NCBI GenBank assembly: GCA_012729555.1 | Contig: JAAYCX010000051.1 | Span: forward strand, 17,882 to 81,881 | Source of the DNA: Acidobacteriota bacterium | Lineage (GTDB): Bacteria > Acidobacteriota > UBA6911 | DNA: 64,000 nucleotides | Reading direction: 5' to 3' | In this document: positions 12,616 to 48,569 of the stretch, piece by piece | Layout of the letters: each line of letters starts with the position of its first letter | Numbering within the stretch: the stretch's first letter is position 1 | Notes under the pieces: model-generated | Seen by the model: the letters and a program-made list of their open reading frames with translations, nothing else | What the model was told of the DNA's origin: nothing | Database searches by the model: none | Translations under genes and position numbers: made by a program

Positions 12616-12781
12616 AGAAGGGCACATGAGCCTTGTTTTTCCGCATGATCAAATGAGACCGGACACCCTCCCCGGTCCCGTCCGGCTTCCTCCCCATGAA
12701 AAAAGGAATCCCCGAGACTGAGACAAACGGTCGCATGGTTCGTAAGTATATGTGAATGGTTTTCCAAAGAGGTGTTCATCC

Positions 12782-13549
12782 ATGGCTGGAGACAAAAAAC
12801 CTGAAACTGAAAAAACCGAGAAAAGGTTTTCCCGGCGCGCTTTCGTCGTAGGCGGCGGAACCGCCCTCGCCGGAGGAGCCCTGACCGCCGTATCCGGCGC
12901 CACCGCGATGGCGGCGCAGGGTACCAAGAAAAACGCCATCGACTATCCCCTTTCCACCAAGTACCTGGTCTACGACAGCAAGCACTGCGCCGGGTGTCTC
13001 AACTGCATGATGGCCTGCTCGATGGTGCATGAAGGGGCGACCAGCCTGTCGCTGGCCCGCATCCAGGTCCACCGGGCGGTGCTCAACCGGTACCCCCAGG
13101 ATATCGTGCAGAACATCTGCCGGCAGTGCCCGGAACCGCTCTGCGTGGACAACTGCCCCACCGGCGCCTGCCACGTCAGCGCCGAAAACGGCAACGTCCG
13201 GCTGATCGATCAGGAAAAATGCATCGGTTGCCAGACCTGCATGCGCTCCTGCCCCTACAGCCCCCACCGCCCGATCTGGAACCCCGTGACCAGGAAGGCC
13301 ACCAAGTGCGACCTGTGCGTCAACACCCCCTACTACAACAAGAAGGGGGGGCCCGACGGGACCCAGGCCTGCGTGGAAATCTGCCCGGCCAACGCGCTCG
13401 CCGTCGTGGACAAGCTCCCGGACCAGGCCGACAACCGGGGTTACGATCGTAACCTGCAGCCGCCGCCGAAGAAGGCGCCTCCTTTCGGAGCATTCCCTAA
13501 AGAGAAACCCAAAGCCAAAACCGAGGCGCCCAAAGCGCCCGCAAACTAG
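12782..13549 (+). CDS. Tat-signal 4Fe-4S ferredoxin-type electron-transfer subunit (YdhX-like)
   Basis: Twin-arginine motif FSRRAFVVGGG. Four CxxCxxCxxxCP-like clusters (CAGCLNCMMAC, CRQCPEPLCVDNCP, CIGCQTCMRSCP, CDLCV...CVEICP). AGAGG RBS 11 nt upstream of ATG 12782. Confidence 0.8.
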   Translation: MAGDKKPETEKTEKRFSRRAFVVGGGTALAGGALTAVSGATAMAAQGTKKNAIDYPLSTKYLVYDSKHCAGCLNCMMACSMVHEGATSLSLARIQVHRAVLNRYPQDIVQNICRQCPEPLCVDNCPTGACHVSAENGNVRLIDQEKCIGCQTCMRSCPYSPHRPIWNPVTRKATKCDLCVNTPYYNKKGGPDGTQACVEICPANALAVVDKLPDQADNRGYDRNLQPPPKKAPPFGAFPKEKPKAKTEAPKAPAN

Positions 13550-13566
13550 GGAAAGGAGGGGACGTT

Positions 13567-15621
13567 ATGGCTACACCAGGATTTGGTGGAAAGATTCTGC
13601 TGGTCAACCTGTCCACCAAGGAAATCAGGGCGCTCGATTCGGAAAAGTATGAAATGTACGGCGGCGGCCACGGCACGGCCACGGCCCTCTTCTGGGAGTT
13701 CTGCGTGGCCCCCGGAGACTGGGACCTGCAGGACGCCTTCCACCCCAGGAACATGGTCGCCCTGATGACGGGGGCGATGGCGGGCACCGGCACCCCGGCC
13801 GCCTCGCGCACCAGCGTCTCGGGCCTCTCCCCGCAGTGCTACCCGGTCCAGTGGTTCTGCCACAGCAACTTCGGCGGCGCCTTCGCCACGATGATGAAAT
13901 TCGCCGGCTGGGACGGCGTGGCCGTCATCGGCAAGGCGGAATCCCCCGTCTACATCAACATCGTCGACGACAAGGTCACCCTGGAAGACGCCAAGGCCTT
14001 ATGGGGGCTCGATTCCTGGAAGACCCAGGAGGAGATCTGGAAGCGCACCGGCGTCCGCTTCGGCGAGGAGTGGTGGCGCCTCGACGGGGGCTACTCCGTC
14101 CAGCGGCCCCAGATCGTGACGATGGGCCCGGCGGGCGAAAACCTGACCCGCGTGGCCTCTCTCATCCACGGCGGCGGCAGCGGCGCCGGGCAGGGCGGGT
14201 TCGGCGGGGTGTTCGGGTCCAAGAACCTGAAGGCGGTGGCCGTCGTCGGCACCGGGAGCATCAAGATCGCCGACCCCAAGGGGCTCAAGGACGCCCGGGA
14301 ATGGTGGGACAAGACCTGGCCCCGGATGGGCGGGGGCTTCGGCGGTTTCGGGCCCGCGTCGGTGTCCTCCTGCTGCGCCGGCTGCGGCATTCCGCGCATG
14401 TGCCACAACCGCGACCGCACCTACAGCGTGGACTCGGACGACTGCGCGGAATCGACCTGGTATTCGCTCGTCGACCACCAGACCCCGACGGAGATCAACC
14501 AGAAGGGGACCGACATCTGCCAGCAGCTAAGCCTGAACGCCATGGAAACCTGTTTCATGGGCCCCATGGCATTCCCGACCGACCACAACAAGGACTTCCC
14601 GATCCAGCCGAAGATTCCCGCCTACACCGCCCTGGGCTGGTACATGAAGAAGATGTACGACATGGGCATCATCGGCCCCGGCACGAAGTACGACACTTCC
14701 CCCCTGCCGATGGACGCCTTCAAGAGCGAACAGTTCATGGAGATCTACGGCATCGCCCTGGCCAACCGGATCGGCATCGGCGACATGCTGGCGGAAGGGA
14801 CGGCGCGCTTCGCCGAGAAGCTCGGAAGGACGGACGATTTCAACACCCTCTGCCGGCTGACCATGTGGGGGTACCAGGACCACTGGTCCATGCCCGGGGT
14901 CGAATGGGCCTACGGCAACCTGCTCGACTCGCGCGACATCAACAACCACGACATGTCCGTGGGGCGCAAGCGCGGGATCACGTGCGAGCAGTTCGTCAAC
15001 ATCCTCGCCGAGCGGACGCTGGGGAACGACCCCTTCTGGTTCGACTACACCTGGGAGGGGGACCGGGCCTACAAGACCGGGATCTACTCCGAATCCACCG
15101 CCAAGTGGGTGGCCTGGCACCAGCACTACTGGAACTACTACAAGGAATCGGTCGGCTTCTGCGACTGGGGCTACTCCCAGCTTTACAACCAGGCCCACGC
15201 CAAGGGTTACGGGCACACGCCGGAGATCGAACCCAGGTACCTCAACGCCGTCACCGGGCGCAACCACACCTTCCAGGACGGGCTGGAAATCGGCCGGCGC
15301 GCCTGGAACCTGAAGCGGGCGATCTTCGTCCTGCAGGGGCGCCACCGCAAGATGGAAAACTTCACCGGGTACTACTACCGGCCGGGGGCTTCCTACTGCG
15401 GCTACGCCACCGAGCTCCCCATCTATGACGGGTCCCAGTGGGACTGGCAGAACTGCCGGGAGCTCTTCTTCACCCGGGAAGGGGTGGACACCTTCAAAAC
15501 CCTCTTCTACAAGGAAGAGGGGTGGAACCCCGATTCGGGCTACCCCACCCGCAAGACGCTGGAGGATCTCGACATGAAGTATGCGGCCGACCTCCTCCAG
15601 TCCAAGGACAAACTGGGGTAG
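13567..15621 (+). CDS. aldehyde:ferredoxin oxidoreductase (AOR) family W/Mo-pterin enzyme, YdhV-like
   Basis: AOR N-terminal domain (GKILLVNLSTKEIRALDSEKYEMYGGGHGTATALF). Fe-S Cys motif SSCCAGCGIPRMC. C-terminus YKEEGWNPDSGYPTRKTLEDL matches my recollection of E. coli YdhV. Paired with the YdhX-like Tat ferredoxin. Confidence 0.8.
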   Translation: MATPGFGGKILLVNLSTKEIRALDSEKYEMYGGGHGTATALFWEFCVAPGDWDLQDAFHPRNMVALMTGAMAGTGTPAASRTSVSGLSPQCYPVQWFCHSNFGGAFATMMKFAGWDGVAVIGKAESPVYINIVDDKVTLEDAKALWGLDSWKTQEEIWKRTGVRFGEEWWRLDGGYSVQRPQIVTMGPAGENLTRVASLIHGGGSGAGQGGFGGVFGSKNLKAVAVVGTGSIKIADPKGLKDAREWWDKTWPRMGGGFGGFGPASVSSCCAGCGIPRMCHNRDRTYSVDSDDCAESTWYSLVDHQTPTEINQKGTDICQQLSLNAMETCFMGPMAFPTDHNKDFPIQPKIPAYTALGWYMKKMYDMGIIGPGTKYDTSPLPMDAFKSEQFMEIYGIALANRIGIGDMLAEGTARFAEKLGRTDDFNTLCRLTMWGYQDHWSMPGVEWAYGNLLDSRDINNHDMSVGRKRGITCEQFVNILAERTLGNDPFWFDYTWEGDRAYKTGIYSESTAKWVAWHQHYWNYYKESVGFCDWGYSQLYNQAHAKGYGHTPEIEPRYLNAVTGRNHTFQDGLEIGRRAWNLKRAIFVLQGRHRKMENFTGYYYRPGASYCGYATELPIYDGSQWDWQNCRELFFTREGVDTFKTLFYKEEGWNPDSGYPTRKTLEDLDMKYAADLLQSKDKLG

Positions 15622-24262: not shown

Positions 24263-24360
24263 CGGATCTCTCCTCCGGATGCGGACTCACGATATGGGTG
24301 ACGCCGGGCGATGAACCCTACTATAATCCGCAGCATGTCCATTCACCTAAGGAGAAAAGC

Positions 24361-26058
24361 ATGAAGCGTACACTGTTCCCCCTGGCCGCCCTCGCCCTCG
24401 GCGCCGCGGGAGTGCTGGCCCCGCCGGCACCCCTTGCGGCGGAGCCCTCCGCCCGGTACGAGGTCCTGAGCCCCTGGGCCGAGGTCGATCCCGTCCCCCT
24501 GCGGGGCCTTTCGCCCCGCCTCGATTCCCTGGCGGGAAAAAAGATCGGAATTTTCGCCAACTACAAGCGCGCGGCGCTGCCGGTGGCCGAGGCGATCGAA
24601 AAGAACCTGAAGACCCTCCACCCGGACATCCAGACCGTCCTCTTCCATTCGACCGAATGGAACGTCACCGAGGTCGAGACCGCCGACCGTGAAACGTTCA
24701 CCGCCTGGGCCAAGGGGGTGGACGCCGTCGTCGGCGTCATCGGCGATTGAGGATCCTGCACGAAGTTCCTCGTCTATAACGGCATATCGATCGAGGACTT
24801 CGGCACGCCGGTCGTGTTACTGGCACATCCAGGATTCGTAAGAGACGCACAGAGCGCAGCCTCCGGCAAGGGAATGCCGGGCATCAGGGTGCGCCCCATC
24901 CAAATAGCCAACGAAACCACCGTGGCCGCCGACATCGAAGCCGGCGCCTCCGGGGCGATGCCCGGCATCGTCGCCGCCCTGACCGATCCGCTGACGGCCG
25001 GGGAGCGCTCCCCCAAAAGGGATGCGGCCGCTCCCCCCCGCGTCGCCTTCGCGGGGGATTACGAGGCGGTCAACCGCTTCTTCTACCGCAAGGGGTGGAC
25101 CGACGGGCTCCCCATCGTCCCCCCGACCGAAAAGGCCGTGGCCGAAATGCTCGAGGGGACCGACCTGCCGCCCGACCACCTGGTGGCCCGCGTCATCCCG
25201 CGCCTGGGAAAGGCGACGGTCGAGAAGATCGCCGTCAACGCCGTCATGGCGGGGGCGCTGCCGACCCACATGCCGGTGCTCCTGGCCGCCGTGCGCGCGC
25301 TCATGAACCCGAAATCGCGCTTCGACACCTTCGAGGTGAGCACCGGGTCGTGGGCCCCCTTCTTCGCCCTCAACGGCCCCGTCCGCAATGACATCCTCGT
25401 CAATTCCGGCTCGGGCGCCCTCAGCCCGGGCGACATCGCCAACGCCGCCATCGGCCGCGCCGTGGGCCTCATCGTCAAGAACATCGGGGGGGCCCGCAAG
25501 GGGATCGAGGACATGGGCGTCATCGGCAACCCCTCCAAGTACAGCCTCGTCATCGGCGAAAACGAGGAGGAGAGCCCCTGGACCCCGCTGCACGTCGACC
25601 GCGGTTTCCGCAGGGAGGAGAGCACCCTGACCCTCTTCTTCCCCAACGGCTTCGCCCAGTCGGTCCCGCGCGCCACCAGCGCGGAGGGGATCGCCCGGGC
25701 GCTCGCCGACATGGGGCCCTGGAGCATGTCGTGCCTCATCGTCATCCCCTCCCACGCCCGCATCCTGGCCGACGAAGGGTGGACGAAGGAGAAGCTCCAG
25801 GAGTACATCCTCCGAAACGCCGCCGACCCCTTCGCCGCCATCGGCGAAAAACCGGACGTTTTGTCGGCGCCCCCGGCCCTCAACCGCGGCGGGTTGCTGA
25901 TCCTGGTCGCCGGCGGCCCCGGCGCCTGGATGGGGATGCTGCGCAGCGTGGGGGGGATCGAAAACGACTTCGTCACCGAGCCGATCGAGTTCCCCAAAAA
26001 CTGGGACTCCCTGGTAAGGAAGTACAGGAACGTCCGCCCCACCTACGAAGACTACTAG
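24361..26058 (+). CDS. candidate selenoprotein: ~130-aa secreted N-terminal domain ending in a U-G-S-C motif (in-frame TGA 24748-24750), continuing in-frame into a conserved ~415-aa domain (GWTDGLPIVPPTEKAVAEML...). Conventional annotation would split it into 24361-24750 and 24814-26058.
   Basis: TGA at codon 130 is followed by GGA TCC TGC (G-S-C). The downstream ORF is in the same frame (both start coordinates are 1 mod 3). An 11-bp bulged hairpin begins 11 nt after the TGA, where a bacterial SECIS would be expected. The paralog at 46809-48569 has the same architecture, with conserved sequence spanning the TGA. Confidence 0.5.
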
Positions 26059-26192: not shown

Positions 26193-26270
<78 letters not shown>

Positions 26271-27496: not shown

Positions 27497-27899
27497 ACCT
27501 CCCCCCTTTTTTTAGTGAACCTTGCGTCGCGCCCTCGGAACCGGCGCCCTGACGCGTTCACGCCGGTCCATGCAATCGGCGTGCCGCACCGCCCGGGAAG
27601 GCCGCGTCGGGGGAAGGGCCCGCATTCACGGCACTATCCATCCGGATCGCGCCGGGGCGGCGGCGCCGCACGGCCCGCGGAGGCGTGTCAAATTCAACAG
27701 CACTGTTGAATTTGACACAGTCCTGAAGCCTCCGCCGCCGGCCGCAGCCTTGCCCGGAGCCCTGAACGAAGACCGTTCTTCCGCTGTAACGCACAGGGGT
27801 CTATGCATTTGATCGTCCCCCGATTGGATGGACGGCTCCCGTCCCGCCGCGGTGGCCCCCGATTTGCTCCGATACCGGCGCAGAGCCGGGAGGTGCAGG

Positions 27900-29228
27900 A
27901 TGAACCGGAAGATGAAACAATCGGTATCGATGATGGTGATCGGCTTCACGATCCTGACGGCGGTTCCGCTCAGGTCCCGGGATGCGCCGATCGCATCGGA
28001 GTACTCGGCCGGCGATCCCCGGCTCGCAATCTACCTGGAGCAGGCCCTTTCCCGCAATCCGGGGATCCTGCAATCCTTCGCCCGCTACCAGGCGGCCAGG
28101 GCCCGCCTGCCGCAGGTGAGTTCCCTGCCGGACCCGCTCCTGAATGTCACCCACTACCTCCGCAGCCCCGAGACGAGAGTCGGGGCGCAGACCACCACGT
28201 TGTCCCTTTCACAGAAACTGCCATGGTTCGGCAAGCTGTCGGACCGGAAAAAGATCGCGGCGAAGGAGGCGGCCGTCTACCGGTACATCCACGAAGCGGG
28301 GACAAAGGACGTCGTCCGGGAGGTGAAGCTCGCGTATCACGGCCTGGGCTATATCGATCGGGCCCTCGATATAACCAGGGAGGAGATATCGGTGCTGGAA
28401 CGCCATGAGGCCCTGGCCCGCGCCCGGTACGAGCAGGGGGTCGGCCTGCAGCAGGGGGTCGTGAAACTGCAGGCCGAAATCACGCGGGAGCGGAACCGCC
28501 TGGAGGAACTCGGGCGACAGCGGGTGGATCTCGAGGCCGTCCTGAACTCCCTGAGGGATCTCCCCGCGGATTCCCCGGTCGAGAAGATACCTCCGCGAAG
28601 GAGGGCCGACTTGCGGATCGACCGCGAGGAGCTCTACCGGATCGGTCGGGACAACAGCCCGGAGATTCAGGCCGCCCTCCTCCGGATCGAAAGGGACGAA
28701 AAACGGATCCATCTGGCCAGGAAGGATTACTGGCCCGATTTCACGATCGGCGCCGGGTTCACCAATGTCACCGGCCGTTCCGATCCGGCCGGGATCCTGA
28801 ACCCTCCCGGGCAGGACGGGAAAAACATCTACGGCCTCTCCGTGGGGATCAACATCCCGGTCCGGCGCAGGAAATACGACGCGGCCGTGGCCGAGGCGAC
28901 CGAGGACACCCTGGCTTCCCGCGAAGGCTACCGCGATGCCGTGAATGTGATGGAGGCCTCCATCAGGGCGATCGCGTTCCGGATGGAGACGCTGGACCGG
29001 CAGATCTCCCTGGTCGGAAACACCCTGATGCCGCAGGCGGAACACTCCCTGCGTTCGACCGAGGCCGCCTACGGCACGGGGGAGGTCGGCGTCCTGGAGC
29101 TCCTCGACGGCGAGCGGATGCTGCTGGATGTGCGGCTCGGCCTGGAGAGATACACCAGCGACTACGCCAAATCGATCGCGGACCTGGAGCGGGCGATCGG
29201 GGCCCCCATCGAAGGGAGGAACCCATGA
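27900..29228 (+). CDS. TolC-family outer-membrane efflux protein (CusC/CzcC-like)
   Basis: OEP repeats. First gene of a three-component metal efflux operon. Start at ATG 27900 with a GGGAGG RBS; the track's 27828 start is an extension. Confidence 0.75.
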   Translation: MNRKMKQSVSMMVIGFTILTAVPLRSRDAPIASEYSAGDPRLAIYLEQALSRNPGILQSFARYQAARARLPQVSSLPDPLLNVTHYLRSPETRVGAQTTTLSLSQKLPWFGKLSDRKKIAAKEAAVYRYIHEAGTKDVVREVKLAYHGLGYIDRALDITREEISVLERHEALARARYEQGVGLQQGVVKLQAEITRERNRLEELGRQRVDLEAVLNSLRDLPADSPVEKIPPRRRADLRIDREELYRIGRDNSPEIQAALLRIERDEKRIHLARKDYWPDFTIGAGFTNVTGRSDPAGILNPPGQDGKNIYGLSVGINIPVRRRKYDAAVAEATEDTLASREGYRDAVNVMEASIRAIAFRMETLDRQISLVGNTLMPQAEHSLRSTEAAYGTGEVGVLELLDGERMLLDVRLGLERYTSDYAKSIADLERAIGAPIEGRNP

Positions 29229-30562
29229 AGTCCAAAACGAGCACCTGGCTTGCGTCCCTCCTGGCGTTCCTTTTGGGCGCAGGCTTGCCCGCCCTCCTGC
29301 TCTGGAACCCGGGCCATTGGGAATGGGCCGAACGCATCGTGTCCGGCCGGCACGGCCCCCCGGCTCTGGGAGCCGAATCGCAAGGGACGCGGCTCTGGAC
29401 CTGCGGCATGCATCCCCAGGTGATCCAGGACGAACCCGGGACCTGTCCCATATGCGGCATGGACCTGGTCCCGGTGCACGAGGAGGGGGCAAAGGAAACC
29501 ACGGGAATCCACGTGGATCCGGGCTTCCTCCAGAACTTCGCCGTCCGGACGGCCCCGGTCCGGAAAGGATCGATCCCGGTCGTGATCCGCACCATCGGGA
29601 CCCTCGACTACAACCAGAAAAACATCGTATCCGTGAGCACGAAGACCGAGGGGTGGATCGAAAAGGCCTACGTCAACTACATCGGCCAGCCGGTGAAACG
29701 GGGCGATGTCCTCTTTGATATCTACAGTCCCCGGCTGGTGACGACCCAGCAGGAATACCTGGCGGCCCTCGCGTACGTCGAAGAGCTCAGCCGGGGGGGG
29801 GATGAAAATGCGGTCGCGCGCGCGCAATCGCTTCTGGAGGCCACCTCCGGGCGTCTCCGCTTCTGGGACATCACGGGGGAACAGGTCGAAGAGCTGCGGA
29901 TCCGCAAAAAGCCCGCACGCACCCTGAAGATCTTCTCTCCCGTTTCCGGGGTCGTCATCGAGAAGATGGGGGATTCGCTCGAAGGGATGAAGCTGTCGCC
30001 GGGGATGAACGTTTTCAAGATCGCCCGGCTTTCGGACCTCTGGGCCCGAATCGAGGTCTACGAGCATCAGATCCGGTACCTCCGGCTCGGGCGGACCGTG
30101 AGCCTCACGCTGGACGCGTTCCCCGGCAGGCGCTACACGGGGAAGATCATCCAACTCGACCCGACCCTCGATCAGAAGACGCGCACCCTGGCCGCCTACG
30201 TGGAGATACCGAACCCCGACCGGGAATTGCGCCCCGCCATGTACGCGGATGTGGAAATCCGCGTCCCGGCCGTTCCGGGCGCGCTGAAGGTGCCGAGCGA
30301 GGCGATCGTGCGCACGGGAGAGAGAAACGTGGTGATCGTGGAAAAGGAGAAGGGCTTCTTCGAACCGCGGGAAGTGGAGCTCGGCGCCGAAGGGGAGGGA
30401 TTCTCCCAGGTGACCGCAGGCCTTCATGAGGGAGAGACCGTGGTCGTTTCATCGCAATTCCTGATCGATTCGGAAAGCAACCTGAAGGAAGCGATCGGCA
30501 AGATGCTGGCAGGCCGCGACCGGGAACCAGGGGATCCGGCCGCCGCGCCCCGCCCCCGGTGA
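29225..30562 (+). CDS. cusB: heavy-metal efflux RND periplasmic adaptor with N-terminal metal-binding domain (CusB-like)
   Basis: WTCGMHPQVIQDEPGTCPICGMDL heavy-metal-binding domain. HlyD-like beta-barrel/lipoyl regions. ATGA overlap with the upstream OMP gene. Confidence 0.8.
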   Translation: MKSKTSTWLASLLAFLLGAGLPALLLWNPGHWEWAERIVSGRHGPPALGAESQGTRLWTCGMHPQVIQDEPGTCPICGMDLVPVHEEGAKETTGIHVDPGFLQNFAVRTAPVRKGSIPVVIRTIGTLDYNQKNIVSVSTKTEGWIEKAYVNYIGQPVKRGDVLFDIYSPRLVTTQQEYLAALAYVEELSRGGDENAVARAQSLLEATSGRLRFWDITGEQVEELRIRKKPARTLKIFSPVSGVVIEKMGDSLEGMKLSPGMNVFKIARLSDLWARIEVYEHQIRYLRLGRTVSLTLDAFPGRRYTGKIIQLDPTLDQKTRTLAAYVEIPNPDRELRPAMYADVEIRVPAVPGALKVPSEAIVRTGERNVVIVEKEKGFFEPREVELGAEGEGFSQVTAGLHEGETVVVSSQFLIDSESNLKEAIGKMLAGRDREPGDPAAAPRPR

Positions 30563-30577
30563 GTTCAGGAGGACCGG

Positions 30578-33500
30578 ATGTTTGCGAAAATCATCGAGTG
30601 GTCGATCGAAAACAAGTTCCTGGTCCTTTTGACAACGGCCCTGCTGGCCGGGGCCGGGATATATTCGGTCCGGAACACGCCCCTGGACGCCATCCCCGAC
30701 CTTTCCGACGTCCAGGTGATCCTCTATACCGAGTACCCCGGCCAGGGCCCCCGTATCGTCGAGGACCAGGTCACCTATCCCCTGACGACGCAGATGCTGG
30801 CGGTGCCCCACGCCAAGGTCGTACGCGGGTACTCCTTTTTCGGGTTTTCCTTCGTCTACATCATTTTTGAGGACGGGACCGACATGTACTGGGCCCGGAG
30901 CCGTGTCCTGGAATACCTGAACTATGTTTCCGGCCGGCTCCCCCGGGGAGTTACGCCGACGCTGGGACCCGACGCCACCGGCGTAGGGTGGGCCTTCATG
31001 TACGCGTTGAAATCGGACCGGCACGACCTCGGCCAGCTCCGTTCCATTCAGGATTTCTACCTGAAATACGAGCTGACGGGCGTACAGGGGGTGGCCGAGG
31101 TCGCCACCATCGGCGGCTTCGTGCGCCAGTACCAGATCACGGTCGACCCGAACAGGCTCCGGGCCTACGGCATCCCCGTCTCGAAGATCCGCGCGGCCGT
31201 AGAGCGCAGCAACAACGATGTAGGGGGACGGCTGCTGGAAATCGCGGAAAAGGAGTTCATGATCCGCGGCCTCGGCTATATCCGGTCCCTGGACGACATC
31301 CGGAAAATCTCGCTGGGAGTGGACGGGCAAGGCACTCCGGTGCTCCTGGGGGACCTGGCAACGGTTCAATACGGGCCGGAGATCCGCCGCGGCATCGCGG
31401 AGTGGGACGGGGAGGGGGAAACGGTGGGCGGCATCGTCGTCGTCCGCTTCGGCGCGAACGCGCGCCAGGTCATCGAGGACGTCAAGGAAAGGCTCGCCGC
31501 CGTCAAAACGGGCCTCCCGGAGGGCGTGAGCGTGGAAATCGCCTACGACCGTTCGGACCTGATCGAGAGGGCCGTCGACAATCTCCTGCGGAAGCTGCTC
31601 GAGGAGTTCATCGTCGTGGCGCTCATCTGCATCGTCTTCCTGATGCATTTCCGCAGCGCCCTCGTCCCCATCATCACCCTGCCGGTGGCCGTCCTGGTTT
31701 CGTTCATCGTCATGCACCTCCAGGGGATCAACGCCAACATCATGTCGCTGGGGGGGATCGCGATCGCCGTGGGGGCGATGGTGGATTCCGCCATCATCAT
31801 GGTGGAAAACGCCCACAAGCACCTGGAACGCGACGCCGGCAGGAAGCCGCACTGGCGCATCATCGCCGATGCGGCGACCGAGGTGGGACCGGCGCTCTTC
31901 TACTCCCTGCTCGTGATCACGGTGTCGTTTCTGCCCGTCTTCACGCTCGAACAGCAGGAAGGGCGGCTGTTCAAGCCGCTGGCGTTCACCAAGACCTACG
32001 CCATGGCCGCCGCGGCTTTTCTCTCCATCACCCTCGTTCCCGTCCTGATGGGGTACTGGATCCGCGGCCGGATCCGGAGCGAGAGCAGAAACCCGGTCAG
32101 CCGCTTCCTGGTCCGGGTCTATCACCCGATGCTGGAATTCGTGATGCGGTTCAAATGGCCGGTGCTGGGATTCGCGCTCCTGGCGATGGCGCTGACATGG
32201 ATACCGTACAAGCGGCTCGGCTCCGAATTCATGCCGCCGCTGTGGGAGGGGGACCTGCTGTACATGCCCACGACCCTCCCGGGGGTCTCGGCCACCAAGG
32301 CGCGGGAGCTGCTGCAGCAGACGGACAAGATCCTGAGGACATTTCCCGAGGTCCGCCACGTGTTCGGCAAGATCGGTCGGGCGGAGACGGCCACCGACCC
32401 GGCGCCCCTCACCATGATCGAAACCACCATCATGCTCAAGCCCGAAAAGGAGTGGCGCCCCGGGATGACGGTGGAAAAACTGACCGCGGAACTGGACGCC
32501 GCCATACGGGTCCCGGGGCTCACCAACGCCTGGACCATGCCGATCAAAACCCGCATCGACATGCTCTCCACCGGGATCAAGACTCCCGTGGGGATCAAAC
32601 TGGCGGGCCCGGACCTGGAGGTGCTGGAGAGGCTGGGCAAAGAAGTCGAGAGCGTCGTCCGCACCGTGCCGGGAACCCTGAGCGCCTATGCGGAACGGGT
32701 CATGGGGGGGAACTACCTCGATATCGAGATCGACCGCGACGCCATCGCCCGATACGGCCTCACCGTCGGCGACGTCGAGGACGTGATCCAGACCGCCGTC
32801 GGCGGCATGAACATCACCACGACGGTCGAAGGGCTGGAGCGGTATCCCGTGAACCTGAGATACGGCCGGGAGCTGCGCGACAGCGTGGAGAGGCTCCGCG
32901 GCGTCCTCGTTTCGACCCCCACGGGTCAGCACATCCCGCTGGGGCAGCTGGCCGGTCTGAGGTTCGCCGTCGGGCCCCCGTCGATCAAGAGCGAGAACGC
33001 GAAGCCCAACGCCTGGGTGTACGTCGACCTCCGGGGCGTGGATGTCGGCACCTACGTCGAAAACGCCAGGAGGATTGTCGGGGAGCGCGTGAAGGTTCCC
33101 GCCGGGTACACCGTCGCCTGGAGCGGCCAGTACGAATACATGGAGCGGGCCCGGCAACGGCTGATGTACGTCATTCCGCTCACGATCGTCCTCGCGGTGG
33201 TGCTCGTCTTTCTCAACACCCGGTCGGTCGTCAAGACGGGCATCGTCTTTCTTGCGGTGCCGTTTTCGCTCGTGGGGGCCGTCTGGCTCCTGTACCTGCT
33301 CGACTACAACATGAGCATCGCGGTCTGGGTCGGCATCATCGCCCTCGCGGGCCTCGACGCGGAAACGGGGGTGGTCATGCTGTTGTACCTGGACCACGCC
33401 TTCGAGAAGGCCCGGAAGGAGGGCCTCCTCAGGGACAGGAACGATCTTGCCGACGCCGTATACGAGGGCGCGGTCAGGCGGGTGCGCCCCAAAATCATGA

Positions 33501-33721
33501 CGATCGGGACGACCATCATCGGACTCCTGCCGATCCTCTGGAGCAGCGGGACCGGATCGGACGTCATGAAACGCATCGCGGCGCCGATGGTCGGAGGGCT
33601 GGTGACCTCCGGCATCCTCGAGCTGCTGCTCTACCCCGTGATTTTCTATCTTTTGAAGGCGCGCGCCCTGCCGCAGGCCGGGCCCTTCAGGGGATTCCAC
33701 CATTTGAAGGAGGCCCGATGA
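30578..33721 (+). CDS. cusA: heavy-metal efflux RND permease, CusA/CzcA family (HME)
   Basis: 1047 aa. N-terminus closely matches the CusA family (IEWSIENKFLVL...PLDAIPDLSDVQVILYTEYPGQGPRIVEDQVTYPLTT...RSRVLEYLN). 12 TM segments plus two large periplasmic loops. Confidence 0.9.
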   Translation: MFAKIIEWSIENKFLVLLTTALLAGAGIYSVRNTPLDAIPDLSDVQVILYTEYPGQGPRIVEDQVTYPLTTQMLAVPHAKVVRGYSFFGFSFVYIIFEDGTDMYWARSRVLEYLNYVSGRLPRGVTPTLGPDATGVGWAFMYALKSDRHDLGQLRSIQDFYLKYELTGVQGVAEVATIGGFVRQYQITVDPNRLRAYGIPVSKIRAAVERSNNDVGGRLLEIAEKEFMIRGLGYIRSLDDIRKISLGVDGQGTPVLLGDLATVQYGPEIRRGIAEWDGEGETVGGIVVVRFGANARQVIEDVKERLAAVKTGLPEGVSVEIAYDRSDLIERAVDNLLRKLLEEFIVVALICIVFLMHFRSALVPIITLPVAVLVSFIVMHLQGINANIMSLGGIAIAVGAMVDSAIIMVENAHKHLERDAGRKPHWRIIADAATEVGPALFYSLLVITVSFLPVFTLEQQEGRLFKPLAFTKTYAMAAAAFLSITLVPVLMGYWIRGRIRSESRNPVSRFLVRVYHPMLEFVMRFKWPVLGFALLAMALTWIPYKRLGSEFMPPLWEGDLLYMPTTLPGVSATKARELLQQTDKILRTFPEVRHVFGKIGRAETATDPAPLTMIETTIMLKPEKEWRPGMTVEKLTAELDAAIRVPGLTNAWTMPIKTRIDMLSTGIKTPVGIKLAGPDLEVLERLGKEVESVVRTVPGTLSAYAERVMGGNYLDIEIDRDAIARYGLTVGDVEDVIQTAVGGMNITTTVEGLERYPVNLRYGRELRDSVERLRGVLVSTPTGQHIPLGQLAGLRFAVGPPSIKSENAKPNAWVYVDLRGVDVGTYVENARRIVGERVKVPAGYTVAWSGQYEYMERARQRLMYVIPLTIVLAVVLVFLNTRSVVKTGIVFLAVPFSLVGAVWLLYLLDYNMSIAVWVGIIALAGLDAETGVVMLLYLDHAFEKARKEGLLRDRNDLADAVYEGAVRRVRPKIMTIGTTIIGLLPILWSSGTGSDVMKRIAAPMVGGLVTSGILELLLYPVIFYLLKARALPQAGPFRGFHHLKEAR

Positions 33722-35699: not shown

Positions 35700-37424
35700 A
35701 TGGAGGCAGTCATGCGCGATATCGTTTTGATAGTCGGCCTGGGCGTTTTCCTGTCCGCGTGCTCGGGCGGCGGCACGGATCCGGACGGCAACGACCCACC
35801 CCCGGTTTCGAGTGCGGCCACTGTCCTTGCGGCCAACGACCTGGGGATGCACTGCATCGACTCGGAGTTCTCGATTTTTTCGATCCTGCCCCCCTACAAC
35901 ATCGTCAACGCGCAGGTGGTCCGGCGGGACGGCTCCGGGCGCCCCTACCTGGCCGATCACACGGAGGTCAGGGTCACCTTCGACGCCGTCGCCGACCCCG
36001 CGGGGTCCGTCAACAGTTTCAGCCTGGGGAAAACCAATTTCTGGCAGTACGCCGGGGCGCTCTTCGGCATGACGCTCCCCGCAGGGGAGGGCCTGACCGG
36101 GGTGTACATGCCCCGGGAACAGCCCTACACCAACGGCCCCCAGCCCATGCCGTACCATCTCCAGAAAGCGGTCTTTCACGCCGAGGGGATCCCGATCACC
36201 CCCCTGGACGACGACCTGGAAAGCAACCCCTACCCGCTCCTTCGCATTGCCGCCGCCGATGCCGTAAGCGGGGCCGCGCTCGGCCACCTGGACGTGGTCG
36301 TCCCGGTTTCCGCCGAGACCGACTGCAAGACCTGCCACAAGACCGGGGCGATGGCCGCGAGCGACCCGGGCACCGCGTGGTCCCTGTCCCCGGACCTGGA
36401 GGTCCAGAGCAAGATCAACATCCTGAGGCTCCACGACGCCGGGCACCAGACCTCCCTGGAAGCCTCCCAGCCGGTCCTGTGCGCGGGGTGCCACTATTCG
36501 CCGGCGCTCGACCTGGCCGGCACGGGGCCGGCCGGCGCGCAGATCGGCAACCCGAATTTCTCGGGTGTCATGCACGAATTTCACGGAGGACTCGAGGCGA
36601 ACGGCCAGCCGGTCTTCCCCCCGGGCGCGACGGTGCAGGAGACGTGCTACCAGTGCCACCCGGGCAACGTCACCCAATGCCAGCGCGGGGCCATGAAGAC
36701 GGGCGGGATGGACTGCCACGCCTGCCACGGGGATATGCTCGCGGTGGGGGGCAGTTACGCCCTGCTGGCGGGGGGCAGCATCGACGGCACCAATGACGGC
36801 AACGCACGCAGGCCGTGGAAGGACCTGCCCCGCTGCCAGTCGTGCCACACGGGAGACGCCCTCGGCTACCTTGCCGGGTCCGCCCTGGCGGCCGATCCCG
36901 ACTGGCCCTTCAGGCTGCGCCAGGCCTACAGGACGGGAGACGCCGCCGCTTCCCCGCTCCTGGCGGCCAACAAGCGTTTTGCCGAGAACACGAACGCCCT
37001 GTACCGCGCGAGCAAGGGGCACGGGGGGATCCTGTGCGAAGGGTGCCACGGCAGCACCCATGCCGTCTGGCCCAACGCCTCGGCGGCCGCGAACGACAAC
37101 CTGGCCGCCGAGATGCTGCAGGGGCATGCGGGCCCGGTCATCGAATGCACCACCTGTCATGCGCCCTCGAGCCTGGCGCGCACGACCAGCGGTCCCCACG
37201 GCCTTCACAACGTCAACGACTCCCGGTGGTACGACGAAGGGCACGAGGAGTTCTACGAGAACAACAAGAACGGGTGCAAGGCGTGTCACGGGGCGAACCT
37301 GACCGGGACGCCGCTCGCCCGGGTGCCGGTCGCCCGGGCATTCAGCGTGGAGGGAAAAACGTTCAGTTACGCCCGGGGAGACATGGTGCGCTGCGACCGC
37401 TGCCACGGCATGCCCGATCTCTGA
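35700..37424 (+). CDS. multihaem c-type cytochrome lipoprotein (nine CxxCH motifs)
   Basis: Lipobox VFLSACSG. Haem sites CKTCH, CAGCH, CYQCH, CHACH, CQSCH, CEGCH, CTTCH, CKACH, CDRCH. Confidence 0.85.
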   Translation: MEAVMRDIVLIVGLGVFLSACSGGGTDPDGNDPPPVSSAATVLAANDLGMHCIDSEFSIFSILPPYNIVNAQVVRRDGSGRPYLADHTEVRVTFDAVADPAGSVNSFSLGKTNFWQYAGALFGMTLPAGEGLTGVYMPREQPYTNGPQPMPYHLQKAVFHAEGIPITPLDDDLESNPYPLLRIAAADAVSGAALGHLDVVVPVSAETDCKTCHKTGAMAASDPGTAWSLSPDLEVQSKINILRLHDAGHQTSLEASQPVLCAGCHYSPALDLAGTGPAGAQIGNPNFSGVMHEFHGGLEANGQPVFPPGATVQETCYQCHPGNVTQCQRGAMKTGGMDCHACHGDMLAVGGSYALLAGGSIDGTNDGNARRPWKDLPRCQSCHTGDALGYLAGSALAADPDWPFRLRQAYRTGDAAASPLLAANKRFAENTNALYRASKGHGGILCEGCHGSTHAVWPNASAAANDNLAAEMLQGHAGPVIECTTCHAPSSLARTTSGPHGLHNVNDSRWYDEGHEEFYENNKNGCKACHGANLTGTPLARVPVARAFSVEGKTFSYARGDMVRCDRCHGMPDL

Positions 37425-38386: not shown

Positions 38387-38539
38387 AACGGTTGGTCTCG
38401 CGGGGCGCGCTGGAGGCTGCTCCAGCACAGCCAAACGCGCGTCCCCCTGGCTCATCCCTGCCACGCGGGCGTTCCATCGCTTCCGACGCCACGGAAAGTT
38501 CTCCATGGCATGATTTTAAATGCCCTGGTATGATAAAGC

Positions 38540-38794
38540 ATGAAAGGAACCACTATGAAAACAGCACCCTTTGCCACCAAACTACCAGCGGACCTGATTG
38601 CCGAGCTCGATGATGTCTGCAAGGCCCTCGGGCTGAAAAAGAACTTTGTCCTCGAAGCCGCCTTGAGGGAAAAACTCGAGGACCTGGTGGATGCCGCCGA
38701 CCTTCAGCATGCCATCAGGGAAGCCACAGGCTTCCATGCGTGGGAAGACATCAAGCGTGAGGATCGCCTGACAAGGGGCAAAATTGCCATATAA
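38540..38794 (+). CDS. type II antitoxin (RelB/DinJ or ribbon-helix-helix type)
   Basis: Small acidic 84-aa protein overlapping a RelE/ParE toxin gene by 11 nt. Confidence 0.6.
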   Translation: MKGTTMKTAPFATKLPADLIAELDDVCKALGLKKNFVLEAALREKLEDLVDAADLQHAIREATGFHAWEDIKREDRLTRGKIAI

Positions 38795-39038: not shown

Positions 39039-39161
39039 GACCGGTCCCGGCCCGTGTCGTTCAGGAGACCGGCAGAGCCGGGACGTCCCCAGATTTCGTC
39101 ACCGCAGGGGGGAGCGACCCGTAGCCGGGGGGCTTTTGTCTTTTTCCGGCGAGGCCTGACG

Positions 39162-39380: not shown

Positions 39381-39391
39381 TTCATCTTCCT

Positions 39392-39784: not shown

Positions 39785-39791
39785 GCTTTCG

Positions 39792-46808: not shown

Positions 46809-48569
46809 ATGACGACACGGAAACGGATGGTGGTGCTGAACCCGGAAGGCCCCCTGGTCCCGGTGACCGAAGGTTCGGGGGCGGGCGTTCCCCGCTGGGA
46901 GATGGCGGCGCGCCCCGAAAGCCTCGACGGCAAAACGGTGTACCTCGTCAACCAGGGCTTCGGGGGGAGCGATCGCTTCATGGAGCAGCTGCAGGCGTGG
47001 TTCGCCCGGCACATGCCGACGGTCCGGACCGTGGTGAAGCGCAAGACGGGCTTCATCTTCCGGGACGACACCCGCGACCTGTGGAAGGAGATCAAGGAAA
47101 AGGGGGACGCCGTCGTCTTCGGGGTCGCGGGTTGACCCGGCTGCGTCACGGCGGTCGCCGGATGTTGCCGCACCCTCGAGCTGAAATACGGGATCCCCAC
47201 CGCGCCGGTTTCGACCATCGCCTTTGAACGCATGGAGCGGGAAGACCGCGAGTTTCACGGGGTCCCCCTGCGCTTCGTCTTCACGCCCCACCCCGTGGTC
47301 TCGATGCCCCCCGCGGTCCTCGCCCGCTACATCGAGGGGAACGACCCGGCCACCGGGCGTCCGGTGATCGCGGAGATCCTCGAGGCCCTCACCCGCCCCT
47401 ATTCCGAAGAGGAGAGCCGCAACCACGCCGTCGTGCGCCCCGTCCCGGAGCACCGGCGCCTGCTCGAGCCGGACACGGAGGAAAACCTCGAGCGCCTGTT
47501 CACCGAGCGCGGGTGGAGCGACGGGCTCCCCGTCGTGCTGCCGACCGAGGAGCGGGTGGCGCGCATGCTCGCCGGCACCGGCCAGAGGCCCGACAAGCTG
47601 GCGGGGAAGGCGCTGCTCGTCGACACGCAGGAAACCCTGAGGGTCTCGGTCGAGGCGGTCGCCGTCGCCGCGGTGATGGCCGGGGCGGGGCCGGAGCACC
47701 TCCCGGTGCTGCTGGCCGTCGCCTCGGCGGGGCAGCCGGCGATCCAGCCCTCGACCCTCCCCTTCGCCAGCGCGCTCCTGGTCAACGGCCCGATCCGGGG
47801 CGAGATCGGGATGAATTCAGGGATGGGGGCCCTGGGACCCTACAGCCGGGCCAACGCCGTCATCGGGCGCGCCTGGACCCTGATGAGCATCCTGTGGGGA
47901 TACGCCCGGCCCCGCCGCACCTTCTGGACCTCCCAGGGGAACAACTATTCCTACAACAACCTCTGCATGGCCGAAAACGAGGAGCGGAGCGTCTGGGAGC
48001 CGTTTCACGTCACGAAGGGGCACGGCGCCGGCGAGAGCGTCGTCAGCCTCTTCCGGGGGTGGAACCTGATCAACAGCATGGGGGCCGCGGCCCGGCGCTC
48101 CTGGGGGGAGGAGGTCCGGATCCAGATGCAGGCGCTCCCCGCCCTCTATTCCGCCGCCACCCTGATCCTGGACCCGCTCACGGCGCGCCACCTCCGGGAG
48201 AACGAGGGGTTCGCAAGCAAGGCCGACGCGAGCCGCTGGATTTCCGAAAACGTGACCCTTCCCGCGGGCCGCTTCTGGGGCAACGACATCATCGACATGC
48301 TGGTGACGCCGCTGGCCCTGGCCGGGGTGAAGCCCTACGCCGACTGGAAGCGGCTGCCGGAGGACGCCCCCATCGCCCCCTACCACCGGCCGGACAAGGT
48401 GAACCTCCTGGTCGTGGGGGGGGAGACGAGCCCGTTGTGGAAGATTTCCGATTTCGACCATGTCGCCACCGTCTCCGTCGATCGGTGGCGTCCCGGCGCG
48501 CCCGCACCCCGGGGCGGGGAGGAAGGCGCGGACGGGGGGCGCGGCGCCTACGAGGGCACACGGGAGTGA
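46809..48569 (+). CDS. candidate selenoprotein, paralog of 24361-26058: ~108-aa N-terminal domain ending U-P-G-C (in-frame TGA 47133-47135), same-frame continuation into a conserved ~445-aa domain (GWSDGLPVVLPTEERVARML...). Conventional annotation would split it into 46809-47135 and 47232-48569.
   Basis: TGA at codon 109 is followed by CCC GGC TGC. 46809 and 47232 are both 0 mod 3. Sequence between the TGA and the first downstream Met is conserved with module 1 (...YNGISIEDFGTP / ...KYGIPTAPVSTI). A GC-rich imperfect hairpin lies at 47137-47161. Confidence 0.45.

What the first reader, a model, noticed from the sequence alone, without database searches (positions are those of the whole stretch)
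24361..26058. In-frame TGA followed by G-S-C, with a SECIS-positioned hairpin: probable UxxC selenoprotein mis-split into two genes
A small secreted ORF (24361-24750) ends at TGA 24748-24750, and the next codons are GGA TCC TGC (U-G-S-C). The reading frame stays open, in the same frame, for about 435 more codons into a conserved domain (GWTDGLPIVPPTEKAVAEML...). The first Met after the TGA comes only 21 codons later, and there is no RBS-like signal in between.

A stable hairpin (CGAAGUUCCUCG / CGAGGACUUCG, 11 bp with one bulged U) starts 11 nt after the UGA. That is the position where bacterial SECIS elements sit.

The U-G-S-C tetrad matches what I recall as the 'UGSC family (seleno)protein' motif. 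Here the small protein would be fused by Sec read-through to a large domain of unknown function. A Cys-containing or separately encoded version in other genomes would be informative.
Basis: partly seen in the sequence, partly recalled or inferred. Interest (0 to 1): 0.85.

Follow-up and report, generated by a model that had tools for sequence, protein, structure and literature searches.

The report
Mis-split UGSC selenoprotein gene
Two adjacent "hypothetical protein" genes are really one 565-residue exported selenoprotein of the known but functionally uncharacterised UGSC family, whose in-frame TGA encodes selenocysteine; the case is ordinary in kind but shows that a very large fused subfamily is routinely mis-annotated.

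Summary
ORF 24361-24750 ends in TGA, followed by GGA TCC TGC, and the frame stays open to 26058.

Evidence that the TGA encodes selenocysteine:
- The Pfam UGSC domain (PF24696, E 1e-23) spans the TGA.
- In 80 related loci, 84 of about 100 gene copies keep an in-frame TGA at this column.
- Full-length homologs carry Cys there (D-C-G-S-C).
- TGA is otherwise the normal stop codon in this window (18 of 30 genes).
- Synonymous variation across orthologs collapses only in the ~75 nt after the UGA.

GenBank holds the two halves as separate hypothetical proteins.

The UGSC selenoprotein family has been known since 2007-2008, and a UGSC fusion was mentioned then. This is therefore a new member of a known kind.

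New details from this work:
- A second paralog with U-P-G-C lies in the same window (46809-48569).
- The 340-residue C-terminal domain has no Pfam family and no solved structural relative.
- A thioredoxin-reductase-like gene accompanies cytoplasmic forms, and an exported rhodanese accompanies exported forms.
- UGSC domains show a weak, recurrent resemblance to GrdB/PrdB reductase selenoproteins.

Selenocysteine machinery was not found in the window and could not be checked genome-wide.

The parts
24350..24354 (+). Shine-Dalgarno (AGGAG), 6 nt upstream of the true start codon
   Evidence: Sequence context printed. No comparable signal precedes GTG 24814 or ATG 24874.
24361..26058 (+). Complete selenoprotein gene: 565 codons with Sec at codon 130, plus stop TAG 26056-26058
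   Evidence: Single open frame apart from the TGA. tblastn HSPs in 80 loci run through the TGA without a break.
24361..24441 (+). Putative Sec-type signal peptide (MKRTLFPLAALALGAAGVLAPPAPLAA | EP)
   Evidence: Basic n-region and a hydrophobic core (Kyte-Doolittle up to 2.16). Signal or lipoprotein-type N-termini are present in nearly all close orthologs and absent from Dehalococcoidia-type copies. The Cys homolog P0125 has a Tat-like SRRSFF. Not run through a dedicated predictor.
24463..24984 (+). UGSC domain (residues 35-208), a flavodoxin-like alpha/beta module with U-G-S-C at a strand-to-helix junction
24748..24759 (+). Sec codon UGA (24748-24750) and the U-G-S-C redox motif
   Evidence: TGA at this column in 84 of about 100 homologous copies, plus 5 more shifted by one residue. 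Cys in 17 of 37 full-length representatives.
24761..24802 (+). SECIS-like hairpin: 11-bp stem (24761-24772 / 24792-24802) with a bulged U at 24767 and a 19-nt apical region
   Evidence: MFE fold. Synonymous-recoding null p 0.0025-0.02. 92.9% of cells paired in 28 orthologs against 25-56% when slid, and 3 pairs with changes on both sides, including the window's own A-U to G-C. Mean folding-energy dip at +9 to +12 in the close ortholog group.
24748..24825 (+). Zone of suppressed synonymous variation, which sets the outer limits of the RNA element. It contains the rare codons ATA 24784 and TTA 24818
   Evidence: Normalised synonymous entropy falls to 0.31-0.50, against a gene mean of 0.805 +/- 0.10. 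All 15 lowest windows of the gene fall at residues 132-139 and 148-154. TTA is 3 of about 660 Leu codons in the window's genes. A possible lower helix (nt 5-12 with 56-66 from the UGA) is conserved but shows no covariation.
25024..26055 (+). C-terminal domain of unknown function (residues 222-565; motifs GWTDGLPIVPPTE, EKIAVNAVMAGALP, EVSTGSWAP, GENEEESPW, VAGGPGA)
46809..48569 (+). Second gene of the same two-domain family in the window, with in-frame TGA at 47133-47135 (motif VFGVAG-U-PGC) and no signal peptide
   Evidence: In-frame TGA flanked by coding-like GC3. Translation. Pfam UGSC E 6.4e-17, spanning the TGA. 29% identity to the first gene, E 8e-33, with U aligned to U. The same U-x-G-C subtype with TGA occurs in L034, L035, L068, L074. 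The downstream half is deposited as hypothetical protein NLV31520.1.

Best explanation
Positions 24361-26058 are one gene. It encodes a 565-residue, probably exported selenoprotein.

How the UGA is read (partly shown, partly established knowledge). UGA 24748-24750 is decoded as selenocysteine. In bacteria this needs a SECIS stem-loop immediately 3' of the UGA, which recruits SelB carrying Sec-tRNA(Sec). The hairpin at 24761-24802, inside a ~75-nt stretch under nucleotide-level constraint, is the candidate SECIS.

Protein architecture (shown):
1. A signal peptide.
2. A flavodoxin-like UGSC domain, with a U-G-S-C motif at the start of a helix.
3. A conserved domain of about 340 residues with no known relatives.

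Function (inferred). The U-x-x-C pair is a selenol/thiol redox or nucleophilic centre that serves a reaction carried out on the C-terminal domain. The selenenyl-sulfide formed in each cycle is then re-reduced by a partner. In cytoplasmic relatives the likely partner is an adjacent thioredoxin-reductase-like flavoprotein. In exported relatives such as this one it is unknown, but several sit next to an exported rhodanese-like protein. The closest mechanistic analogy is the U-x-x-C 'protein B' subunits of glycine, betaine, sarcosine and D-proline reductases. The substrate is unknown.
For: One gene, with Sec:
- The Pfam UGSC model aligns to residues 35-208, across the TGA.
- Single tblastn HSPs cross the TGA in essentially all of 80 loci, from Acidobacteriota, Desulfatiglans, Dehalococcoidia, Burkholderiales, Alphaproteobacteria and Methylomirabilota.
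- The aligned codon is TGA in 84 of about 100 copies.
- Full-length homologs carry Cys there: 17 of 37.
- TGA is an ordinary stop in 18 of 30 other genes in the window.
- No RBS or ATG exists for an independent downstream gene.
- A second paralog in the same window has a TGA at the same column.

SECIS:
- The stem is paired in 92.9% of cells, against 25-56% when slid, with compensatory changes.
- Synonymous entropy reaches its minimum for the whole gene at residues 132-154.
- Rare codons cluster there.
- Folding energy dips at +9 to +12 in orthologs.

Function:
- In the model of the Cys homolog, the motif lies at a strand-to-helix junction of an alpha/beta domain.
- A TrxB-like flavoprotein (Pyr_redox_2, E 1e-35, CAxC motif) occurs in 14 of 80 loci. 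It lies 27-51 nt downstream on the same strand in five loci, and upstream on the same strand (31-367 nt) in four others.
- An exported rhodanese occurs in 9 loci.
- The UGSC module and the C-domain also occur as adjacent separate genes. In one locus the C-domain is instead fused to a CPTC module.
- UGSC domains give recurrent weak hits to GrdB, PrdB, GrdH and GrdF: 4-5 of 22 members, best E 3.3e-4.
Against:
- The hairpin's energy is unremarkable for this GC-rich gene: z -1.5 against shuffles, rank 139 of 547.
- No Rfam SECIS model matches.
- RNAalifold finds no consensus structure across all 52 orthologs and paralogs. The Dehalococcoidia-type group shows no energy dip at this position.
- Covariation in the stem is thin (5 cells), because both arms encode conserved residues.
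- The window's gene has neither the TrxB-like nor the rhodanese neighbour. The nearest rhodanese is an ArsR fusion 8.7 kb away.
- The GrdB/PrdB similarity is far below family cut-offs, is absent against Pfam GRDB, and was not inspected residue by residue.
- The CPTC fusion is a single locus, with only a sub-threshold Trx-fold (TraF) hit.
- The NCBIfam UGSC equivalog cut-off is not reached (59 against 125 bits).
Confidence: 0.85

Rival explanations
1. The TGA is a genuine stop. The locus holds two genes: a small secreted 129-residue protein, and an independent protein of 394-414 residues starting at ATG 24874 or GTG 24814.
For: This is how NCBI and JGI annotate identical or near-identical contigs. 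TGA is the commonest stop codon in the window. No Sec machinery lies in the window.
Against: The UGSC domain would be cut in half at its conserved motif. The 41 codons between the TGA and ATG 24874 are conserved at protein level across phyla. They are also the stretch of the gene with the least synonymous change. There is no Shine-Dalgarno before either candidate start. Cys-containing homologs are continuous proteins.
Confidence: 0.03
2. The TGA is a sequencing or assembly error, or the gene is a recently inactivated pseudogene of a Cys-containing ancestor.
For: This is a single-window observation from what is evidently a metagenome-assembled genome.
Against: The same TGA is present in independent assemblies of the same lineage and in 84 copies from many phyla. 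A second paralog in the window has it too. Codon-position GC and conservation remain gene-like on both sides.
Confidence: 0.01
3. The UGA is read through, but not as selenocysteine. It could be decoded as Cys, Trp or Gly, either by near-cognate decoding or by a lineage-specific reassignment.
For: The Sec machinery is unverified for this genome. Cys and, rarely, Gly occupy this column in homologs.
Against: TGA terminates 18 of 30 well-supported genes here, so there is no global reassignment. A conserved RNA element directly 3' of the UGA is what SelB-dependent Sec insertion requires and what simple read-through does not. The family is a recognised selenoprotein family (PMC1976440, PMC2398784, PMC13188914).
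Confidence: 0.03
4. The gene has a dual output. Selenium supply decides between a truncated 129-residue secreted fragment and the full-length selenoprotein, and the fragment has a role of its own.
For: Sec insertion at UGA competes with termination in all bacteria studied (established knowledge). The N-terminal ORF has its own strong RBS and signal peptide.
Against: The fragment would be half of an alpha/beta domain and is unlikely to fold. Standalone UGSC proteins elsewhere contain the whole domain, including the part after the U.
Confidence: 0.08

Closest known systems
UGSC-containing selenoprotein family (Zhang & Gladyshev 2007/2008; Pfam PF24696; NCBIfam NF041046, 'UGSC family (seleno)protein')
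   Same: - Same domain: Pfam E 1e-23.
- Same U-G-S-C motif encoded by an in-frame UGA.
- Sec forms predominate over Cys forms. In GOS there were 255 Sec against 21 Cys (PMC2398784). Here 84 of about 100 copies have TGA.
- Function unknown in both (PMC13188914, PMC9312934).
   Different: - The described family and the NCBIfam model are small standalone proteins of about 150-190 aa. This protein scores only 59 bits against the cut-off of 125.
- It carries a signal peptide and an extra C-terminal domain of 340 residues.
- The literature calls the fold 'likely Trx-like' (PMC2398784). The model of a Cys homolog is instead flavodoxin/B12-binding-like.
'UGSC/Unknown_1' fusion reported in the Global Ocean Sampling selenoproteome (PMC2398784, Fig. 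S1A)
   Same: [quoted passage not shown] That is the pattern seen here.
   Different: Identity of Unknown_1 with this C-domain could not be established. The figure is held only as an image, and the sequence supplement is truncated. The GOS examples came from aquatic surface samples. This gene is from an Acidobacteria MAG, and its close relatives are from Acidobacteriota, Desulfatiglans and Dehalococcoidia.
Selenoprotein B subunits of glycine/sarcosine/betaine reductase (GrdB/GrdF/GrdH) and D-proline reductase (PrdB)
   Same: - They are U-x-x-C selenoproteins.
- In them the Sec-bearing module works with a separate substrate-activating part, and a thioredoxin system re-reduces the oxidised centre (established knowledge of the Stickland reductases).
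- UGSC domains give weak but recurrent hits to these models and to no other functional family.
- A TrxB-like gene is a conserved neighbour.
   Different: - Scores are far below family cut-offs (best 19 bits against 602), and Pfam GRDB is not hit.
- The C-terminal domain is unrelated to any Grd or Prd component.
- No pyruvoyl-subunit gene is nearby.
- This protein is predicted to be exported, whereas Grd and Prd are cytoplasmic.
Bacterial SECIS elements (E. coli fdhF type)
   Same: A stem-loop within the coding sequence begins 11 nt after the UGA, has a bulged U in the stem, and is conserved beyond what the protein sequence requires.
   Different: The apical region is 19 nt, with variable sub-structure, rather than a compact G-containing loop. 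No Rfam SECIS model matches. The more distant paralog groups do not share it, as expected for gene-specific bacterial SECIS elements.

Membership tests
Bacterial selenoprotein gene (SelB/SECIS-dependent UGA recoding) | In-frame UGA with conserved coding sequence on both sides, in the same frame | tested here: met
   single HSPs cross the TGA, and 84 of about 100 copies keep it.
Bacterial selenoprotein gene (SelB/SECIS-dependent UGA recoding) | Homologs with Cys aligned to the UGA position | tested here: met
   D-C-G-S-C in P0125, P0153, P0173, P0223 and others. Cys in 17 of 37 full-length representatives.
Bacterial selenoprotein gene (SelB/SECIS-dependent UGA recoding) | Stem-loop immediately downstream of the UGA, conserved as RNA | tested here: met
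   for the close ortholog group. Single-sequence energy is only marginal. There is no consensus across distant paralogs.
Bacterial selenoprotein gene (SelB/SECIS-dependent UGA recoding) | Recognition by a SECIS predictor or curated SECIS model | tested here: not met
   no Rfam SECIS family at E<=10. bSECISearch was not available. Bacterial SECIS elements are poorly covered by Rfam, so this weighs little.
Bacterial selenoprotein gene (SelB/SECIS-dependent UGA recoding) | selA, selB, selD and tRNA-Sec present in the genome | not testable with these tools
Indirect support: a second TGA-containing paralog lies in the window.
Bacterial selenoprotein gene (SelB/SECIS-dependent UGA recoding) | Selenium actually incorporated at the UGA | not testable with these tools
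   Requires 75Se labelling or mass spectrometry.
UGSC family (Pfam PF24696) | Score above the Pfam gathering threshold over the full domain | tested here: met
   84.8 bits against 25, covering model positions 2-171 of 172.
UGSC family (seleno)protein (NCBIfam NF041046, equivalog) | Score above the curated equivalog cut-off of 125 bits | tested here: not met
   59 bits. Even standalone UGSC proteins from L069 and L077 reach only 118-120 bits. This probably explains why annotation pipelines do not rescue these genes.
UGSC family | U-G-S-C motif at the conserved position | tested here: met
   The second paralog has U-P-G-C.
Thioredoxin-fold UxxC oxidoreductases (the fold suggested for UGSC in the literature) | Thioredoxin fold around the redox motif | tested here: not met
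GrdB/PrdB reductase selenoprotein B family | Score above the family cut-off, or alignment of the Sec residues | tested here: inconclusive
   weak hits in 4-5 of 22 UGSC domains (best E 3.3e-4, 19 bits against cut-offs of 600 or more). The hit spans model positions 330-425, which from memory includes the GrdB Sec. No residue-level alignment was seen. Pfam GRDB is not hit.

The most novel reading that the evidence does not exclude
The fused UGSC/C-domain proteins would be a large, unrecognised class of selenium-dependent reductases of anaerobes. The class has thousands of sequences, and nearly all of them are split by annotation.

In this reading a Sec module distantly related to the 'protein B' subunits of the Stickland reductases delivers a selenol to a catalytic domain with a fold not seen in any solved structure. 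Cytoplasmic versions are recycled by a dedicated thioredoxin-reductase-like enzyme. Exported versions, such as the window's gene, would work with periplasmic rhodanese-type sulfur carriers. That would point to a periplasmic, selenium-dependent reaction in sulfur, selenium or metalloid chemistry.
Probability: 0.3. Interest if true: 0.7.

Novelty: new member of a known kind. Interest (0 to 1): 0.45.

Why it matters
**Annotation.** Both halves of this gene, and of its paralog at 46809-48569, are deposited as unrelated hypothetical proteins. All of the 120 closest database homologs are truncated at the same TGA. The curated NCBIfam model that could rescue them scores below its cut-off on the fused form. 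The whole subfamily is therefore systematically mis-annotated. It has about 5,000 representatives at 50% clustering matching the post-TGA part, a count that includes C-domain-only proteins. Selenoproteome counts for Acidobacteriota, Dehalococcoidia and Desulfatiglans are correspondingly too low.

**Biology.** UGSC proteins have been among the most abundant environmental selenoproteins since 2008, yet their function is still unknown. Several features found here give concrete, testable handles on that question:
- the fusion to a large conserved domain;
- the operon link to a TrxB-like reductase;
- the rhodanese link in exported forms;
- the hint of kinship with GrdB/PrdB.

Tried and rejected
- **RNAalifold on all 52 sequences downstream of the UGA.** It gave no consensus structure. 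I therefore restricted the structural claim to the close ortholog group.
- **Extended lower helix (nt 5-12 with 56-66).** It is conserved, but shows no covariation and two weak pairs. I kept it only as a possibility.
- **Rfam at a permissive threshold around both UGAs.** Only noise hits appeared.
- **Hairpin after the second gene's UGA.** It is no better than shuffles, z -0.33, so I make no SECIS claim for that gene.
- **PDB sequence searches with the family profile and with the UGSC profile.** Nothing meaningful.
- **afdb50 fold library.** Unavailable.
- **Structure prediction of the window protein with U replaced by C.** I used the exact C-domain and the Cys homolog P0125 instead.
- **GOS Fig. 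S1A and Dataset S1.** They could not be read far enough to identify 'Unknown_1'.
- **Pfam GRDB.** Not hit by any of 22 UGSC domains.
- **Neighbour clustering.** Clusters 1 and 3 were antisense shadow ORFs over the gene itself and were discarded.
- **Alternative N-terminal modules on the C-domain.** Most apparent cases were just post-TGA remnants of UGSC domains. Only L072 is a distinct CPTC module.
- **Alternative genetic code.** Rejected from stop-codon usage.
Full report
**1. The observation**

An ORF with a strong Shine-Dalgarno (AGGAG, 24350-24354) starts at ATG 24361 and stops at TGA 24748-24750. The next codons are GGA TCC TGC. The same frame then runs 435 codons to TAG 26056-26058.

The hairpin CGAAGUUCCUCG / CGAGGACUUCG occupies 24761-24772 and 24792-24802. 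It begins at the 11th nucleotide after the UGA and has one bulged U.

One detail needs correcting. The in-frame start about 21 codons after the TGA is GTG 24814. The first ATG is codon 42 (24874), which is the start chosen by public annotation. Neither has a ribosome-binding site.

**2. Is the TGA a selenocysteine codon?**

With U replaced by C, the read-through protein matches Pfam PF24696 'UGSC family' over residues 35-208. The match runs straight across residue 130 (E 1e-23, 84.8 bits, cut-off 25). It also matches NCBIfam NF041046 'UGSC family (seleno)protein', but below that model's equivalog cut-off (59 against 125 bits).

A search of 5.8 billion proteins returned 2,898 hits among the scored candidates. 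All of the best 120 are 384-437 residues long and cover only the part after the TGA. Gene callers evidently cut the whole subfamily at the same place.

I fetched 80 related genomic loci. They come from Acidobacteriota, Desulfatiglans and other Thermodesulfobacteriota, Dehalococcoidia, Burkholderiales, Alphaproteobacteria, Methylomirabilota and others. tblastn of the full read-through protein gave single alignments that cross position 130 in essentially every locus, often for two to four paralogs per locus.

The codon aligned to U130 is TGA in 84 of about 100 copies. Five more have a TGA one residue to the side (U-x-G-C). Only three have TGT or TGC.

In an exhaustive search of representatives clustered at 50% identity (4,984 hits), 37 of the best 150 are continuous full-length proteins. 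At the U column they carry Cys in 17 (for example P0125, GVGD-C-GSC-TKFLVYN, 48% identical), Ser in 7 and Ala in 6. Another 40 begin just after the U.

TGA is the commonest ordinary stop codon in this window, ending 18 of 30 well-supported genes. The genetic code is therefore not reassigned.

Public records of identical or 99%-identical contigs list a 129/130-residue product and a 394-residue product as separate hypothetical proteins (NLV31495.1 / NLV31496.1, locus tags GXY47_10100 / 10105, 'Acidobacteria bacterium'). No full-length version is on record.

**3. The RNA element**

Taken alone, the hairpin is not remarkable for a gene with 67% G+C:
- z is -1.5 against dinucleotide shuffles.
- z is -2.2 to -2.5 (p 0.0025-0.02) against sequences recoded with synonymous codons at the window's own codon usage.
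- It ranks 139th of 547 windows of equal size in the gene.

The comparative evidence is much stronger:
- In 28 close orthologs the 11 pairs are formed in 92.9% of cells, against 25-56% when the 3' arm is slid by one to three columns. Three pairs show changes on both sides. One is the window's own ACG...UUC where most orthologs have ACA...UUU, a doubly synonymous A-U to G-C exchange.
- Variants encoding E-E-L instead of E-D-F re-pair the stem in a shifted register without the bulge. This is my own reading of the alignment.
- An alignment-free profile of local folding energy dips at +9 to +12 nt in this group, with mean z -1.16.
- In a codon alignment of 26 orthologs, normalised synonymous-site entropy averages 0.805 +/- 0.10 over the gene. 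All 15 lowest nine-codon windows lie at residues 132-139 and 148-154, with a minimum of 0.31. The ~75 nt after the UGA are thus the only part of the gene under strong nucleotide-level constraint.
- In the window, codons that are rare here (ATA 24784, TTA 24818) sit in this stretch.

The limits of the evidence:
- RNAalifold finds no consensus structure over all 52 orthologs and paralogs.
- The Dehalococcoidia-type group shows no energy dip at this position.
- A possible lower helix is conserved but does not covary.
- Rfam's SECIS models do not match.

This pattern fits the gene-specific nature of bacterial SECIS elements. It also means the element is 'SECIS-like by position and conservation', not validated by a predictor.

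**4. Sec machinery**

The window contains one tRNA (tRNA-Arg, 26194-26270) and no selA, selB or selD among about 50 ORFs scanned.

There is indirect support. A scan for in-frame TGAs flanked by coding-like sequence found a second gene of the same family at 46809-48569, with TGA at 47133-47135 and the motif VFGVAG-U-PGC. Its read-through product matches Pfam UGSC across the TGA (E 6.4e-17). It aligns to the first gene at 29% identity (E 8e-33), with U on U. The same subtype with TGA occurs in L034, L035, L068 and L074.

**5. What the protein is**

The protein has three parts.

(a) *An N-terminal segment with the look of a Sec-type signal peptide.* Close orthologs almost all have signal or lipoprotein-type N-termini. 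Dehalococcoidia-type copies start directly at Y-E-V-L-S-P-W, and the Cys homolog P0125 has a Tat-like SRRSFF.

**6. Clues to function**

*The two modules can be separate.* In L069 (two pairs), L077 and L055, a small standalone UGSC selenoprotein (Pfam 153-167 bits) lies next to a separate C-domain gene in another frame. Proteins of about 350 residues that match only the C-domain are common among representatives, although some of these may be fragments. In one locus (L072) the C-domain is fused to a different N-terminal module carrying C-P-T-C. That module has only a sub-threshold thioredoxin-fold hit.

*Two neighbours recur across otherwise unconserved contexts.*
- A low-molecular-weight thioredoxin-reductase-type flavoprotein (Pyr_redox_2, E 1e-35; active-site G-V-x-x-C-A-x-C-D) occurs in 14 of 80 loci. 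It lies 27-51 nt downstream on the same strand in five Dehalococcoidia loci, and upstream on the same strand (31-367 nt) in four proteobacterial loci.
- A rhodanese-domain protein occurs in 9 loci. All the rhodaneses carry their own signal peptides, and they accompany family members that are themselves exported.

*A weak link to known reductases.* When 22 diverse UGSC domains are scanned against NCBIfam, the only recurrent hits besides UGSC itself are GrdB, GrdH, GrdF and PrdB. These are the selenoprotein B subunits of the glycine, betaine, sarcosine and D-proline reductases, and they are also U-x-x-C selenoproteins. They are hit by 4-5 members each, with best E 3.3e-4. These scores are far below cut-offs, and Pfam GRDB is not hit. 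I treat this as a lead, not as membership.

*Working model (inferred).* The U-x-x-C centre acts as the nucleophile or reductant for a reaction on the C-domain. The resulting Se-S bond is re-reduced by a dedicated partner. The window's own gene has neither neighbour. It sits between a divergent MFS transporter and tRNA-Arg, near a CusCBA-type efflux operon, an ArsR-rhodanese fusion and a multihaem cytochrome. Its reductant and substrate are unknown.

**7. Comparison with what is known, and novelty**

UGSC-containing proteins were reported as selenoproteins in 2007 (PMC1976440). [quoted passage not shown] The same paper noted a 'UGSC/Unknown_1' fusion whose partner also occurs alone. I could not establish whether Unknown_1 is this C-domain, because the figure is an image and the dataset is truncated.

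Later reviews list the family with function unknown (PMC9312934, PMC13188914). Only eight papers in the library mention it at all.

The finding is therefore a correctly diagnosed, unannotated member of a known selenoprotein family, not a new kind of system.

Four things appear to go beyond the literature I could read:
- the scale of the mis-split fused subfamily;
- the exported forms;
- the absence of any structural relative for the C-domain;
- the TrxB-like and rhodanese associations and the GrdB/PrdB hint.

**8. Verdict**

I am about 85-90% confident that 24361-26058 is one Sec-containing gene. My confidence in the functional model is much lower, about 30-50%. Interest is moderate. The result is useful for annotation and as an entry point to an old unknown, but it would not surprise a selenoprotein specialist.

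Noticed in passing
window 46809-48569 (+), TGA at 47133-47135: A second mis-split selenoprotein gene of the same two-domain family (motif VFGVAG-U-PGC, no signal peptide). A radical-SAM ORF follows at 48460-49704. The downstream half is deposited as hypothetical protein NLV31520.1. The hairpin right after its UGA (47138-47170) is no better than shuffled sequence.
   Followed up: partly
GCCGGUCGUGUUACUGGC is nearly invariant across phyla, and codons that are rare here occur in it or just beyond (TTA 24818, GTA-AGA 24838-24843). This could be a lower SECIS helix or a translational pause site. The proposed pairing showed no covariation.
   Followed up: partly
L015, L019, L020, L027, L028 (downstream); L062, L066, L070, L079 (upstream): A thioredoxin-reductase-like flavoprotein (CAxC motif) is encoded next to UGSC-fusion genes on the same strand. 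The gaps are 27-51 nt in the five downstream loci and 31-367 nt in the four upstream loci. The arrangement looks operonic and suggests a dedicated reductase.
   Followed up: partly
L010, L021, L022, L045, L048, L073 and others: Exported rhodanese-like proteins (active-site loop YC-x-C-G/H-x-E-x-D-S) recur next to exported members of the family.
   Followed up: partly
L072:~5560-7011: The C-domain is fused to a different N-terminal module carrying C-P-T-C, which has only a sub-threshold thioredoxin-fold (TraF) hit. It is a possible functional replacement for the UGSC module, seen in one locus only.
   Followed up: partly
L019, L027 and L077: A family III CoA-transferase-like ORF lies a few hundred nt downstream of the TrxB-like gene in L019 and L027. 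By eye, the end of a CoA-transferase-like ORF precedes the standalone UGSC gene in L077. SDR and peptide-type ABC transporter genes also recur in Dehalococcoidia loci. The identifications are by eye or by clustering and were not verified against Pfam.
   Followed up: no
window 38400-41500: A low-GC island (43-58% against 67% for the window) with only small ORFs. These include an RHH-antitoxin-like and RelE/ParE-like pair at 38540-39038. It is probably horizontally acquired.
   Followed up: no
window 26194-26270 (+): tRNA-Arg (ACG) lies 136 nt downstream of the selenoprotein gene. In the 99%-identical public contig L081, an IS110-family transposase gene lies downstream of the selenoprotein gene. 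I did not find it among the window ORFs I scanned, so this may be a strain-level difference.
   Followed up: no
window 12752-15621 (+): A 4Fe-4S ferredoxin-domain ORF is followed by an aldehyde:ferredoxin oxidoreductase (AFOR_N/AFOR_C). With the multihaem cytochrome at 35700-37424, this points to an anaerobic lifestyle compatible with selenoprotein use.
   Followed up: no
window 27828-33721 (+) and 55712-61369 (-): Two RND efflux operons (OEP / HlyD-CusB-type adaptor / AcrB family). The first has a heavy-metal-binding domain on its adaptor.
   Followed up: no
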